Shown here: one piece after another, positions 10,593-14,545 of the stretch
Numbering within the stretch: position 1 is the first letter of the stretch
Layout of the letters: the number at the start of each line of letters is the position of its first letter
DNA from: a virus
Taxonomy: Duplodnaviria > Heunggongvirae > Uroviricota > Caudoviricetes
IMG/VR virus record: IMGVR_UViG_3300001199_000001
Span: 69,404 to 133,403 of that record
Length of the DNA: 64,000 nucleotides
Reading direction: 5' to 3' (one strand)
The notes under the pieces: model-generated
The model's database searches: none
What the model saw: only the letters and a program-made list of their open reading frames with translations
Told to the model about the DNA's origin: nothing
Translations under genes and position numbers: made by a program

Positions 10593-10667
10593 GGCCCGGT
10601 CGTCTAATAGTGAGGATACCTGACTTTCAATCAGGAGACAGGGGGGCAGTACCCCTTCGGGCTTCCA
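10593..10667 (+). tRNA. trnE: tRNA-Glu(TTC), atypical T-loop GGCAGTA
   Basis: Loop CT-TTC-AA, CCA end. Confidence 0.88.
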
Positions 10668-10669
10668 TC

Positions 10670-10743
10670 GCTCAATTCGTCTATCAGTAGGATACTAGAC
10701 TGTCGATCTAGAGAGGCGGGGGCAGCACCCGCATTGAGCGCCA
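10670..10743 (+). tRNA. trnD: tRNA-Asp(GTC), atypical T-loop GGCAGCA
   Basis: Loop CT-GTC-GA, G73, CCA end. Confidence 0.9.
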
Positions 10744-13096: not shown

Positions 13097-13168
13097 GCCG
13101 ATGCCGTGTGGTACGGGCCTGTCCTTGGTATGGACGGTGGCAGGGTTCGATTCCCTGTTTCGGCTCCA
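13097..13168 (+). tRNA. trnT: tRNA-Thr(GGT), compact D-arm
   Basis: Loop TT-GGT-AT, canonical T-arm, CCA. Confidence 0.8.
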
Positions 13169-13386: not shown

Positions 13387-13473
13387 GGATCAGTCACCTC
13401 AGCGGCGAGAGGCACGGGCTCTTAATCCGTCAGCGTAAGCTCATCGTGGGTTCGAGTCCCACCTGATCCTCCA
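13387..13473 (+). tRNA. trnK: tRNA with CTT (Lys) anticodon and a long variable arm
   Basis: Loop CT-CTT-AA, V-arm AGC-GTAA-GCT, U73, CCA; 87 nt. Confidence 0.82.
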
Positions 13474-13475
13474 AA

Positions 13476-13503
13476 TTCCCGCCGACAGTTTAGTCGGCGG
13501 GAA
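13476..13503. terminator. Hairpin closing tRNA module B
   Basis: TTCCCGCCGAC/GTCGGCGGGAA; the U-tract is on the minus strand only. Confidence 0.6.
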
Positions 13504-13528
13504 AAATCGAATAATCTGTATTTTCTTG

Positions 13529-13557
13529 TTGACATACCCTTAAACACTTGATATAAA
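13529..13557 (+). promoter_or_regulatory. Promoter of module C (Leu tRNAs)
   Basis: TTGACA-N17-TATAAA. Confidence 0.85.
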
Positions 13558-13564
13558 CCTCCCC

Positions 13565-13651
13565 ATGTTCACGAACGCCCACACCTTATTGCTACTTAGC
13601 GACGCCTTCGCCGCGTCCTTGGTTGCGCGTGCGTTTGGCGTTAAACGGTAG
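13565..13651 (+). CDS. Leader peptide C, MFTNAHTLLLLSDAFAASLVARAFGVKR
   Basis: Four consecutive, different Leu codons TTA TTG CTA CTT upstream of five tRNA-Leu genes. Confidence 0.82.
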   Translation: MFTNAHTLLLLSDAFAASLVARAFGVKR

Positions 13652-13717
13652 TCCAGACTGCGCTTAGGCGTCTGAGACTATAAGTCCCAACATCTCTGTG
13701 CAGTCCCTTGCTTTCAA

Positions 13718-13797
13718 GGGTCCCGAGCTAACTCAGGGTGGCTTGGGCGCGGCCTTTAACCGCAGAGCAAGAAGTTCGACTCTTCCGGGACCCTCCA
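13718..13797 (+). tRNA. Degenerate tRNA with TTT (Lys) anticodon
   Basis: GGGTCCC/GGGACCC acceptor, loop CC-TTT-AA (C33), irregular D-arm, U73, CCA. Confidence 0.55.
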
Positions 13798-13816
13798 ATC
13801 TCAAGACCAAATCCAT

Positions 13817-13895
13817 CGTCGCCTAGCCCAACCATGGCAGAGGCAATACGTTGAGAGCGTATCCAGTACGAGTTCGAATCTCGTGGCGACGACCA
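13817..13895 (+). tRNA. trnL: tRNA-Leu(GAG), short variable loop
   Basis: Loop TT-GAG-AG, 5-nt V-loop, A73, CCA. Confidence 0.85.
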
Positions 13896-13896
13896 T

Positions 13897-13981
13897 GCGG
13901 ATGTGGCGGAATTGGTAGACGCCCTGGTTTTAGGTACCAGTATCGCAAGGTGTGGAGGTTCGAGTCCTCTCATCCGCACCA
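13897..13981 (+). tRNA. trnL: tRNA-Leu(TAG)
   Basis: Class II cloverleaf, loop TT-TAG-GT, CCA. Confidence 0.95.
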
Positions 13982-13990
13982 TTCATTCAC

Positions 13991-14065
13991 GGCCTCGGAA
14001 GTCAAAGAATCGAGACAGCCCGGTAAGGGAACTGAAGTCGGTGTAAGTCCGGCCCAAGGCCACCA
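13991..14065 (+). ncRNA. tRNA-like RNA (8-bp acceptor plus 5-bp T-stem, CCA end)
   Basis: GGCCTCGG/CCAAGGCC, T-arm GTCGG-TGTAAGT-CCGGC, irregular anticodon arm, ACCA end. Confidence 0.55.
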
Positions 14066-14073
14066 TGTTTTAT

Positions 14074-14151
14074 CGCTGGGTAGCCCAACTTGGTAGAGGC
14101 GACGCGCTCAGAATGCGTACAGTGAGAGTTCGAATCTCTCTCCAGCGACCA
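14074..14151 (+). tRNA. trnL: tRNA-Leu(CAG), short variable loop
   Basis: Loop CT-CAG-AA, 5-nt V-loop, A73, CCA. Confidence 0.85.
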
Positions 14152-14168
14152 ATCTTAAGGGGACTAAA

Positions 14169-14375
14169 ATGACTCTGAAGACCCACGTCACCGGAATGGT
14201 CACGTTCCAGTATTATCGCGACGGTAACCTCTGGTACAAGACGGATTCAGGTTTCAGCTTCCCCGTCCCGGTAGACGACACAGGATCAGCGACGTTCTCG
14301 GCGTTGGATAAGGCGCTGCTTTTCATGCGGTACATCCGTAAGCATATGGATGTCATCGCAGCGAAGGTAAATTGA
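14169..14375 (+). CDS. Conserved small phage protein
   Basis: F.YYR.G.LWY.T..GF.FPVP..D.G.A.F...DK...FMRYIRK pattern; GGGG RBS. Confidence 0.75.
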   Translation: MTLKTHVTGMVTFQYYRDGNLWYKTDSGFSFPVPVDDTGSATFSALDKALLFMRYIRKHMDVIAAKVN

Positions 14376-14379
14376 TCAC

Positions 14380-14462
14380 GCGGGTATGGCGGAATTGGTA
14401 GACGCGCTGGCTTCAAGTACCAGTGTTAATTCGTGCCGGTTCGAGTCCGGCTACCCGCACCA
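14380..14462 (+). tRNA. trnL: tRNA-Leu(CAA)
   Basis: Class II, loop TT-CAA-GT, CCA. Confidence 0.93.
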
Positions 14463-14468
14463 ACCTAT

Positions 14469-14545
14469 CCCCTGGTAGCCCAACTGGCAGAGGCAACGGA
14501 TTTAAGCTCCGTCAAGTCTGAGTTCGAATCTCAGGTAGGGGACCA
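14469..14545 (+). tRNA. trnL: tRNA-Leu(TAA), short variable loop
   Basis: Loop TT-TAA-GC, 5-nt V-loop, A73, CCA. Confidence 0.85.

What the first reader, a model, noticed from the sequence alone, without database searches (positions are those of the whole stretch)
13387..14545. Swapped tRNA architectures: long-arm Lys, short-arm Leu
tRNA(CUU) has a class II variable arm and U73. Three of the five Leu tRNAs (GAG, CAG, TAA) have only a 5-nt variable loop, share a TAGCCCAAC...GGCAGAGGC-type D-arm and have C1-G72/A73. Normally Leu is class II and Lys class I in bacteria. These bodies may evade host anticodon nucleases or be charged with non-cognate amino acids; the leader codons argue they are meant to decode AAG and Leu codons.
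Basis: partly seen in the sequence, partly recalled or inferred. Interest (0 to 1): 0.7.

Follow-up and report, generated by a model that had tools for sequence, protein, structure and literature searches.

The report
Short-arm Leu, long-arm Lys phage tRNAs
A 279-kb Caulobacter-type phage carries three leucine tRNAs that lack the usual extra arm and a lysine tRNA that has gained one; both designs are real but belong to widespread tRNA families that databases already annotate as ordinary Leu and Lys tRNAs.

Summary
tRNA(CUU) 13387-13473 has a long variable arm, U73 and an encoded CCA. The Leu tRNAs GAG, CAG and UAA have 5-nt variable loops, C1-G72, A73 and a shared D arm.

Neither design is a one-off.
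- The short-arm Leu genes belong to the type I tRNA-Leu family. Their D-arm signature sits almost only on Leu anticodons: 111 of 113 viral tRNAs and 102 of 102 bacterial ones. The family is native to Actinomycetota, and LeuRS leucylates it in Streptomyces (Fan 2019). More than 100 cultured-phage records match it, and those listed mostly annotate it as tRNA-Leu.
- The long-arm tRNA(CUU) is about 90% identical to genes annotated tRNA-Lys in phiCbK-like Caulobacter phages since 2012. It belongs to a phage family in which all 13 members aligned read Lys codons. The extra arm is kept by compensatory changes.

The phage encodes no matching synthetase, so host enzymes must charge these tRNAs. Cognate charging is most likely: strongly so for Leu, less surely for Lys.

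Nuclease evasion remains an untested motive. This scan has already reported both designs on other DNA.

What is new here:
- C1-G72 in all three Leu copies, which is rare in the family.
- An unannotated tRNA-Sec-like 8/4 gene with a UUU loop at 13718-13797.

The parts
13387..13473 (+). Long-arm (class II shaped) tRNA-Lys(CUU), with U73 and an encoded CCA
   Evidence: ARAGORN. RF00005 45.2 bits. It is 90-91% identical over its full length to genes annotated tRNA-Lys in phiCbK-like phages. Covariation across 13 family members supports the fold.
13433..13447 (+). Variable arm of tRNA(CUU): C, then a 3-bp stem AGC/GCU with a GUAA loop, then four unpaired nt CAUC
   Evidence: All 3 stem pairs show two-sided changes and are 100% paired across 13 sequences.
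13718..13797 (+). Unannotated tRNA-like gene with an 8-bp acceptor stem, a 4-bp T stem and a 6-bp D hairpin with a 4-nt loop. Its anticodon-type loop is CC-UUU-AA. It ends in U73 and CCA. It is probably this phage's tRNA-Lys(UUU).
   Evidence: Found by eye and confirmed. Homologues occur in Kikimora, Kabachok and Colossus. In the alignment 94.6% of cells are paired and 11 of 23 pairs covary. It aligns end to end with RF01852 (tRNA-Sec) at 23.7 bits, E=0.01, below that family's gathering score.
13817..13895 (+). Type I (short-arm) tRNA-Leu(GAG), with C1-G72 and A73
   Evidence: RF00005 43.8 bits. It carries the family D-arm signature.
13897..13981 (+). Canonical class II tRNA-Leu(UAG)
   Evidence: It is 86.5% identical to the tRNA-Leu of Rhizobium phages.
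14074..14151 (+). Type I tRNA-Leu(CAG), with C1-G72 and A73
   Evidence: RF00005 50 bits. It is 83% identical to the annotated tRNA-Leu of Erwinia phage phiEa21-4.
14380..14462 (+). Canonical class II tRNA-Leu(CAA)
14469..14545 (+). Type I tRNA-Leu(UAA), with C1-G72 and A73
   Evidence: RF00005 43.8 bits. It matches 172 phage records, and those listed mostly annotate it as tRNA-Leu.

Best explanation
All four genes are working phage tRNAs that read their cognate codons. They are built on two non-textbook but widespread body plans.

**Leu(GAG), Leu(CAG) and Leu(UAA).** These are type I tRNA-Leu.
- They keep the elements that bacterial LeuRS reads: U8-A14, A15-U48, G18G19 with a standard T loop, and A73.
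- They lack the variable hairpin. Fan 2019 found that removing its base pairs did no harm with the Streptomyces enzyme, and I recall the same from minimal-tRNA work on E. coli LeuRS.
- Host LeuRS therefore most likely charges them with leucine (inferred).

**tRNA(CUU).** This is a member of a phage-specific long-arm tRNA-Lys family.
- LysRS identity rests mainly on the anticodon, so host LysRS most likely charges it with lysine (inferred).
- Its 3-bp arm followed by four unpaired 3' nucleotides is unlike the arms of the phage's own Ser tRNAs, so SerRS probably ignores it (inferred).

**What is shown:** the structures, family membership, covariation, the tie between body and anticodon, and the absence of a matching phage synthetase.

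**What is not shown:** the amino acid attached, and why the shapes were selected.
For: **Leu**
- The D-arm signature occurs on 111 Leu anticodons out of 113 viral tRNAs, all 74-79 nt. They cover both Leu codon boxes: UAA 36, UAG 32, CAA 26, CAG 8, GAG 8, AAG 1. In bacterial genomes it occurs on 102 of 102 Leu anticodons.
- A73 is present in 207 of 213 family members.
- Invariant columns of the alignment include U8, A14, A15, G18G19 and the T loop.
- A Streptomyces tRNA-Leu(CAA) has the ACAGC variable loop described by Fan 2019 and nearly the same D arm. Fan 2019 (PMC6614811) shows that this type is leucylated.
- 172 and 122 phage records match two of the window's copies, and those listed mostly annotate the match as tRNA-Leu.
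- The window's five Leu anticodons are non-redundant. GAG and CAG serve 74% of the phage's Leu codons.

**Lys**
- Full-length homologues at 85-91% identity are annotated tRNA-Lys in phiCbK-like Caulobacter phages and two Brevundimonas phages.
- Thirteen distinct family members from phages of six host genera and from metagenomes all carry CUU or UUU. In their alignment 98.5% of cells are paired, and 15 of 20 pairs show two-sided changes, including all 3 variable-stem pairs.
- The bodies nearest to the window's CUU tRNA are other long-arm Lys tRNAs, not Ser, Tyr or Leu.
- The variable arm is 3 bp followed by 4 unpaired nt. The window's Ser tRNAs have 5-6 bp followed by 1 nt.
- AAG makes up 71% of Lys codons.
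- Lys identity rests on the anticodon plus A73 (PMC9976931).

**Synthetases.** The genome, rated 100% complete, has no hit to Pfam families PF00133, PF00152 or PF00587.
Against: - No aminoacylation data exist for any of these genes.
- E. coli LeuRS could not charge the Streptomyces type I tRNA-Leu in vitro.
- The presumed host class seldom carries the Leu signature: 3 of 301 genomes. The host LeuRS has therefore not obviously co-evolved with type I tRNA-Leu.
- C1-G72 is rare in the family, in 2-3 of 213 members, and I cannot explain it.
- The CUU tRNA has U73, whereas Lys identity uses A73.
- The CUU tRNA also has G1-C72 and G2-C71, as bacterial Ser tRNAs do. Mukai 2017 treats a long V-arm with G73 or U73 as SerRS-compatible. 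The phage's own Ser(CGA) also has U73.
Confidence: 0.7

Rival explanations
1. The reshaping is a counter-defence. The tRNAs are cognately charged, but the shapes were selected because they escape host tRNA-cutting defence enzymes, or a nuclease of the phage's own. The added arm on tRNA-Lys would hinder enzymes that grip ordinary tRNA-Lys. Removing the arm from tRNA-Leu would hide it from enzymes that recognise class II tRNAs. This adds a motive to the best explanation and does not replace it.
For: - tRNA-Lys(UUU) is a repeated target of anti-phage tRNases, namely PARIS AriB and the bacterial Schlafen RorSlfn5 (PMC13056530).
- Human SLFN11 cleaves type II tRNAs (title cited).
- The long-arm Lys signature was found in phages but in 0 of 151 genomes of the presumed host class.
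- Several huge-phage contigs carry an ordinary and a long-arm copy with the same anticodon side by side.
Against: - No defence nuclease is known to discriminate by the variable arm in bacteria. The enzymes cited cut the anticodon arm, which is ordinary in these tRNAs.
- Type I tRNA-Leu is also a native chromosomal gene in most genomes of one actinobacterial family, where phage counter-defence cannot be the reason.
- Nothing was tested here.
Confidence: 0.3
2. Mischarging. The long-arm tRNA(CUU) is recognised through its class II shape by SerRS (or by TyrRS or LeuRS) and inserts a non-lysine residue at AAG. For the Leu genes, C1-G72 with A73 would let ProRS charge them.
For: - SerRS ignores the anticodon and reads the variable arm (PMC9976931).
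- Allo-tRNAs with Leu anticodons insert Ser in E. coli, and Mukai 2017 considers U73 compatible with SerRS.
- The CUU tRNA has G1-C72, G2-C71 and U73, and the phage's Ser(CGA) also has U73.
- Nematode class II tRNAs with non-Leu, non-Ser anticodons are described in PMC3333845 (abstract).
Against: - The body is tied to Lys anticodons in 13 of 13 family members. Allo-tRNAs, by contrast, span 35 codons.
- The arm is 3 bp followed by 4 unpaired nt, unlike the phage's Ser arms.
- AAG is the main Lys codon, so mischarging would corrupt the phage's own proteins.
- For Leu, ProRS needs G35 and G36, which are absent. The D arm is the Leu-family one and not that of the phage's own Pro tRNAs. GAG and CAG read 74% of Leu codons.
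Confidence: 0.1
3. They are decaying or non-decoding tRNA-like genes. They could be pseudogenes, decoys for host enzymes, or processing signals within the tRNA transcript.
For: - Their shapes depart from the canonical forms.
- Relatives (Karma, Rogue, Colossus, Kikimora) use class II tRNAs where the Leu slots were read.
- The 8/4 element has C33 in the window and a weak anticodon stem in Colossus.
Against: - All helices are intact, the anticodon loops are 7 nt with U33 and A37, and CCA is encoded.
- Covariation across distant phages shows purifying selection on the whole cloverleaf.
- The Leu anticodon set is complementary and not redundant.
Confidence: 0.05

Closest known systems
Type I tRNA-Leu(CAA) of Streptomyces coelicolor (Fan et al. 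2019, NAR 47:6369, PMC6614811)
   Same: Both have a Leu anticodon, a 5-nt variable loop, a 3-bp D stem in the motif UAGCCCA(A/G)C..GGYAGAGGC, U8-A14 and A73.
   Different: - The window copies have C1-G72 where that tRNA has G1-C72.
- They sit in a phage whose presumed host class seldom has this tRNA (3 of 301 genomes).
- They cover the anticodons GAG, CAG and UAA.
- The paper reports that E. coli LeuRS cannot charge the Streptomyces tRNA, so charging in a proteobacterial host is unproven.
tRNA-Lys(AAG) and tRNA-Lys(AAA) genes of Caulobacter phage phiCbK and its relatives (JX100813 50139-50226 and 50233-50323; Gill et al. 2012, PMC3556154)
   Same: - The CUU gene is 90% identical to the window's and is 87-88 nt.
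- It has the same 15-nt arm, U73 and CCA.
- It occupies the same place in the array, after the Pro and Thr genes and before the Leu genes.
   Different: - phiCbK pairs it with a 90-nt long-arm Lys(UUU). The window has the 8/4 UUU element in that slot.
- The phiCbK paper lists the tRNAs and does not mention variable arms.
Allo-tRNAs and (8/4) tRNA-Ser and tRNA-His of alpha-proteobacterial phages (Mukai et al. 2017, PMC5389517)
   Same: - These are non-canonical tRNA shapes in phage tRNA clusters.
- A long arm is combined with anticodons other than Leu, Ser or Tyr.
- The element at 13718-13797 shares the 8/4 branch and the tRNA-Sec-like 6-bp D stem with a tetraloop.
   Different: - The CUU tRNA has a 7/5 branch, not 8/4 or 9/3.
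- The 8/4 element lacks the long V-arm.
- Allo-tRNA anticodons are scattered over 35 codons, with Ser or Ala identity. The family here is restricted to Lys.
Nematode-specific V-arm tRNAs (nev-tRNAs; Hamashima et al. 2012, PMC3333845)
   Same: Both are class II bodies carrying an anticodon for neither Leu nor Ser.
   Different: They are eukaryotic. By the paper's title they decode an alternative code for leucine, and they carry other anticodons. No sequence kinship was tested.
Phage tRNAs that evade tRNA-targeting defences (PMC11555353; AriB and Schlafen cleavage of tRNA-Lys in PMC13056530)
   Same: These are phage-encoded copies of tRNAs that host immunity targets, above all tRNA-Lys.
   Different: Those cases involve ordinary class I tRNAs. 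No role for the variable arm has been shown there.

Membership tests
Type I (short-arm) tRNA-Leu | Leu anticodon on a body of about 74-79 nt with a 4-5 nt variable loop | tested here: met
   The anticodons are GAG, CAG and UAA. The genes are 77-79 nt with loops CCAGU, ACAGU and CAAGU.
Type I (short-arm) tRNA-Leu | D arm UAGCCCA(A/G)C..GGYAGAGGC, which includes U8, A14, A15 and G18G19 and forms a 3-bp stem | tested here: met
   All three copies match exactly. The motif is tied to Leu anticodons in 213 of 215 tRNAs.
Type I (short-arm) tRNA-Leu | Discriminator A73, with position 1-72 being G-C or G-U | tested here: inconclusive
   A73 is present; the family has it in 207 of 213 members. Position 1-72 is C-G in all three copies, against about 1% in the family.
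Type I (short-arm) tRNA-Leu | Leucylated by the host LeuRS | not testable with these tools
   This has been shown only for Streptomyces LeuRS. E. coli LeuRS failed on that tRNA.
Long-arm phage tRNA-Lys | CUU or UUU anticodon in a CU-NUU-AA loop on a 7/5 cloverleaf | tested here: met
   All 13 aligned members share this.
Long-arm phage tRNA-Lys | Variable region of about 15 nt: 1 nt, a 3-bp stem, a GNRA loop, then 4 unpaired nt ending in C48 | tested here: met
   The window has C-AGC-GUAA-GCU-CAUC. All three stem pairs covary.
Long-arm phage tRNA-Lys | Charged with lysine | not testable with these tools
   This is inferred from the tie between anticodon and body and from the anticodon-based identity of LysRS.
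Bacterial tRNA-Ser (as the identity of the CUU tRNA) | Long variable stem of 5-7 bp with about one unpaired nt on each side, and G73 | tested here: not met
   The CUU tRNA has a 3-bp stem, 4 unpaired 3' nt and U73. The window's four Ser tRNAs have 5-6 bp stems followed by 1 nt. G1-C72 and G2-C71 are shared.
Allo-tRNA (Mukai 2017) | 8/4 or 9/3 acceptor/T branch, with a tRNA-Sec-like D arm and a long V-arm | tested here: not met
   The CUU tRNA has a 7/5 branch. The element at 13718-13797 has the 8/4 branch and the D arm but no V-arm.
tRNA-Pro (as the identity of the short-arm genes) | C1-G72 and A73 together with anticodon G35 and G36 | tested here: not met
   The acceptor end matches. The anticodons are NAG and NAA, and the D arm differs from the phage's three Pro tRNAs.

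The most novel reading that the evidence does not exclude
Host SerRS, or another synthetase that reads class II tRNAs, charges the long-arm tRNA(CUU) (G1-C72, G2-C71, U73) at least in part. On this reading phiCbK-type phages would deliberately put a non-lysine residue at some AAG codons during infection. The type I Leu tRNAs and the 8/4 UUU tRNA would belong to the same programme of phage tRNAs kept separate from host enzymes.
Probability: 0.08. Interest if true: 0.85.

Novelty: new member of a known kind. Interest (0 to 1): 0.4.

Why it matters
A current identity review still states that tRNA-Leu carries a long arm everywhere except in animal mitochondria (PMC9976931). It names only Leu, Ser and Tyr as long-arm tRNAs.

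This window shows both rules broken side by side in one phage tRNA array. The family searches show that the exceptions are common in phages.

The Leu exception has a published biochemical precedent. I found no published description of the Lys exception, although it has been in GenBank annotations since 2012.

The open questions are which host enzymes charge these tRNAs and whether the shapes protect them from tRNA-cutting defences. phiCbK on Caulobacter is a ready model for both.

For this window itself the news is modest, because this scan has already reported both designs on other DNA.

Tried and rejected
- **Host family has type I Leu natively: rejected.** A contig titled 'Brevundimonas sp.' (L182) seemed to show it, with 179 of 201 genomes of its family matching. 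That genome carries 5 WhiB genes, so it is an actinobacterium.
- **Host proxy used instead.** I used the class of a Hyphomicrobiaceae MAG. Its taxonomy rests on the record title and the absence of WhiB. I could not obtain a verified Caulobacter genome.
- **Descent of the CUU tRNA from a Ser, Tyr or Leu body: no support.** No such body lies closer to it than the general background level. Only the arm geometry is Tyr-like.
- **Close relatives of the phage through the 68-aa ORF at 14169-14372:** none found.
- **BLAST of the 8/4 element against cultured phages:** no match. Homologues came from reading flanks and from a pattern scan.
- **Streptomyces matches to the D-arm pattern:** these turned out not to be tRNAs but a conserved sequence carrying only a Leu-like 5' half. 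The real Streptomyces type I Leu(CAA) was found by similarity search.
- **Literature searches** for long-arm Lys tRNAs or type I Leu tRNAs in phages found no description.
Full report
**What the window is.** The window lies in a single 278,859-bp contig with 56% G+C. It is an IMG/VR virus record that CheckV rates 100% complete. It carries about 41 tRNA genes in one array. ARAGORN finds 39. Rfam adds a Glu and an Asp gene at 10593-10740. Gene order and tRNA sequences tie it to the phiCbK, Colossus and Brevundimonas jumbo phages of the subfamily Dolichocephalovirinae.

tRNA(CUU) at 13387-13473 is 87 nt.
- It has a 7/5 acceptor/T branch and three unpaired nucleotides before the D stem.
- Its anticodon loop is a normal CU-CUU-AA.
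- Its 15-nt variable region forms a 3-bp stem with a GUAA loop.
- It ends in U73 and an encoded CCA.

Leu(GAG) 13817-13895, Leu(CAG) 14074-14151 and Leu(UAA) 14469-14545 are 77-79 nt.
- They have 5-nt variable loops and the shared D arm UAGCCCAAC..GGYAGAGGC.
- They have C1-G72, A73 and CCA.

Leu(UAG) and Leu(CAA) are ordinary class II tRNAs. All four odd genes score 43.8-50 bits on Rfam's tRNA model, above its 29-bit cut-off.

**The short-arm Leu genes belong to a large family.**
Of the 113 tRNAs that carry it, 111 have Leu anticodons from both codon boxes, and all are 74-79 nt.
- The same scan of one genome per prokaryotic species also hit its limit. All 102 tRNAs found have Leu anticodons. 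Most are single chromosomal genes of Actinomycetota, and 19 lie in tRNA arrays.
- In one actinobacterial family, 179 of 201 genomes have one or two copies.
- Among cultured phages, 172 and 122 records match two of the window's copies. They include Felix O1-like phages of Erwinia, Salmonella and E. coli, cluster C mycobacteriophages, and Serratia and Pseudomonas phages. The records listed mostly annotate the match as tRNA-Leu.
- A ten-sequence alignment keeps U8, A14, A15, G18G19 and the T loop invariant, while the stems covary.

**There is a published precedent for the Leu design.** Fan et al. 2019 showed that Streptomyces coelicolor has a type I tRNA-Leu(CAA) with variable loop ACAGC and that its LeuRS leucylates it. 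A Streptomyces genome searched here holds a 74-nt tRNA-Leu(CAA) with that exact loop and nearly the same D arm. The window's genes are therefore members of that kind.

**Three points about the Leu genes remain open.**
- All three window copies have C1-G72. Only 2-3 of 213 family members do; the rest have G-C or G-U. I have no explanation for this.
- E. coli LeuRS could not charge the Streptomyces tRNA.
- The presumed host class seldom has the signature: 3 of 301 genomes, one of them inside a tRNA array.

The phage encodes no class Ia, IIa or IIb synthetase, so the host LeuRS must do the charging.

I still rate leucine identity as very likely, for three reasons.
- The body is tied to Leu anticodons only.
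- The five Leu anticodons are complementary, and GAG and CAG read 74% of the phage's Leu codons.

ProRS is an unlikely suitor because G35 and G36 are missing.

**The long-arm Lys gene is also one of many.**
- It matches over its full length, at 90-91% identity, genes annotated tRNA-Lys in phiCbK, Karma, Magneto, Swift, Rogue and newer Caulobacter phages. It matches at 85% in Brevundimonas phages Kikimora and Gurke.
- Genes of 82-89 nt annotated tRNA-Lys also occur in Xanthomonas phages XacN1 and X1, Mesorhizobium phage Cp1R7A-A1, Rhodobacter phage RcXuper and Microcystis phage Mwe-JY26.
- Thirteen distinct members all carry CUU or UUU. In their alignment 98.5% of cells are paired and 15 of 20 pairs show two-sided changes. 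All three variable-stem pairs covary, and no shuffle out of 500 reached these values.
- The family signature was absent from 151 genomes of the presumed host class.
- The 2012 phiCbK paper lists the tRNAs and does not mention variable arms. My searches found no description of the design.

**Which amino acid the CUU tRNA carries is inferred, not shown.**

For lysine:
- LysRS identity rests on the anticodon plus A73.
- The body occurs only with Lys anticodons. One-step GUU (Asn) relatives exist.
- AAG is 71% of Lys codons.
- The arm is 3 bp followed by four unpaired nucleotides. That geometry matches the tRNA-Tyr of XacN1. It is unlike the phage's own Ser tRNAs, which have 5-6 bp followed by one nucleotide.

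Against lysine:
- The discriminator is U73, not A73.
- G1-C72 and G2-C71 are shared with bacterial Ser tRNAs.
- Mukai 2017 holds that a long V-arm with G73 or U73 suits SerRS, and shows that allo-tRNAs with Leu anticodons insert Ser in E. coli.
- The phage's own Ser(CGA) also has U73.

I put lysine at about two in three and mischarging at about one in ten.

**Why the shapes exist is open.** tRNA-Lys is a favourite target of anti-phage tRNases. That makes nuclease evasion attractive. But those enzymes cut the anticodon arm, which is ordinary here, and type I tRNA-Leu is native in actinobacteria.

**An extra gene lies within the finding's coordinates.** At 13718-13797 sits an RNA that both ARAGORN and the first Rfam scan missed.
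- It has an 8-bp acceptor stem, a 4-bp T stem with loop UUCGACU, and a 6-bp hairpin with a GUGG loop where the D arm should be.
- It has a hairpin with loop CC-UUU-AA, a 6-nt variable region, U73 and CCA.
- Homologues follow Lys(CUU) in Kikimora and Kabachok, where the loop is a proper CU-UUU-AA. In Colossus a copy precedes Lys(CUU) and has a CUU loop on a weak stem.
- Across the four sequences 94.6% of cells are paired and 11 of 23 pairs covary.
- It aligns end to end with Rfam's tRNA-Sec model minus the variable arm, at 23.7 bits and E=0.01, which is below that family's cut-off.
- In Karma, Rogue and phiCbK the same slot holds a 90-nt long-arm Lys(UUU).
- It is most likely this phage's tRNA-Lys(UUU) in an 8/4 shape. 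Mukai 2017 reported that shape for Ser and His tRNAs of alpha-proteobacterial phages.

**Standing.** This scan has already reported long-arm phage Lys tRNAs and short-arm phage Leu tRNAs on other DNA several times, with the same reading. This window is therefore a further, tidy example of both designs. The rare C1-G72 Leu variant and the 8/4 UUU gene are its own contributions.

Noticed in passing
window 13718-13797 (+): An unannotated tRNA-Sec-like 8/4 RNA with a UUU anticodon-type loop (C33), U73 and CCA. It is conserved with covariation in Kikimora, Kabachok and Colossus, and GenBank does not annotate it in Kikimora or Kabachok. It is probably an 8/4-shaped tRNA-Lys(UUU). By eye, the nucleotides after the acceptor stem (GCU or GCG) can pair with the variable region (AGC or CGC), with a U-A to G-C swap between lineages.
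   Followed up: partly
window 10593-10667 and 10670-10743 (+): tRNA-Glu(UUC) and tRNA-Asp(GUC) genes that Rfam found (45 and 41.6 bits) and ARAGORN missed. Their T loops read GGCAGUA and GGCAGCA where a normal tRNA has UUCRANY. The Glu gene has G1-U72 and U73.
   Followed up: no
window 17018-17112 (-): A 95-nt class II shaped tRNA(UAU) with U73, the only tRNA in the array on the minus strand. The loop of its long arm reads AGAUUAG, which contains GAU. The same motif recurs in seven long-arm tRNA(UAU) genes of other viral contigs.
   Followed up: no
window 13097-13168 and 16103-16174 (+): Thr(GGU) and Ala(UGC) are only 72 nt and have shrunken D arms. Ser(CGA) 16547-16634 has U73 where the other three Ser tRNAs have G73. 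His 16019-16093 has A73.
   Followed up: no
L182 / G001 (JBCECL010000009.1, titled 'MAG: Brevundimonas sp.'): This genome carries five WhiB genes and an actinobacterial-type tRNA-Leu, so the public name appears to be wrong.
   Followed up: partly
L144, L170, L179, L207, L214 (Streptomyces and Streptacidiphilus): A conserved sequence begins like the 5' half of a type I tRNA-Leu (GGUAGCCCAAC..GGCAGAGGCAG) and continues with GGUCAAUCUCAGACUCU.GCUCCAG and no tRNA 3' half. ARAGORN does not call it.
   Followed up: no
L250, L253, L241, L116, L245, L249 (viral contigs): Huge-phage arrays hold long-arm versions of Asn, Gln, His, Thr, Arg, Trp and Met tRNAs, often next to an ordinary copy with the same anticodon.
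   Followed up: no
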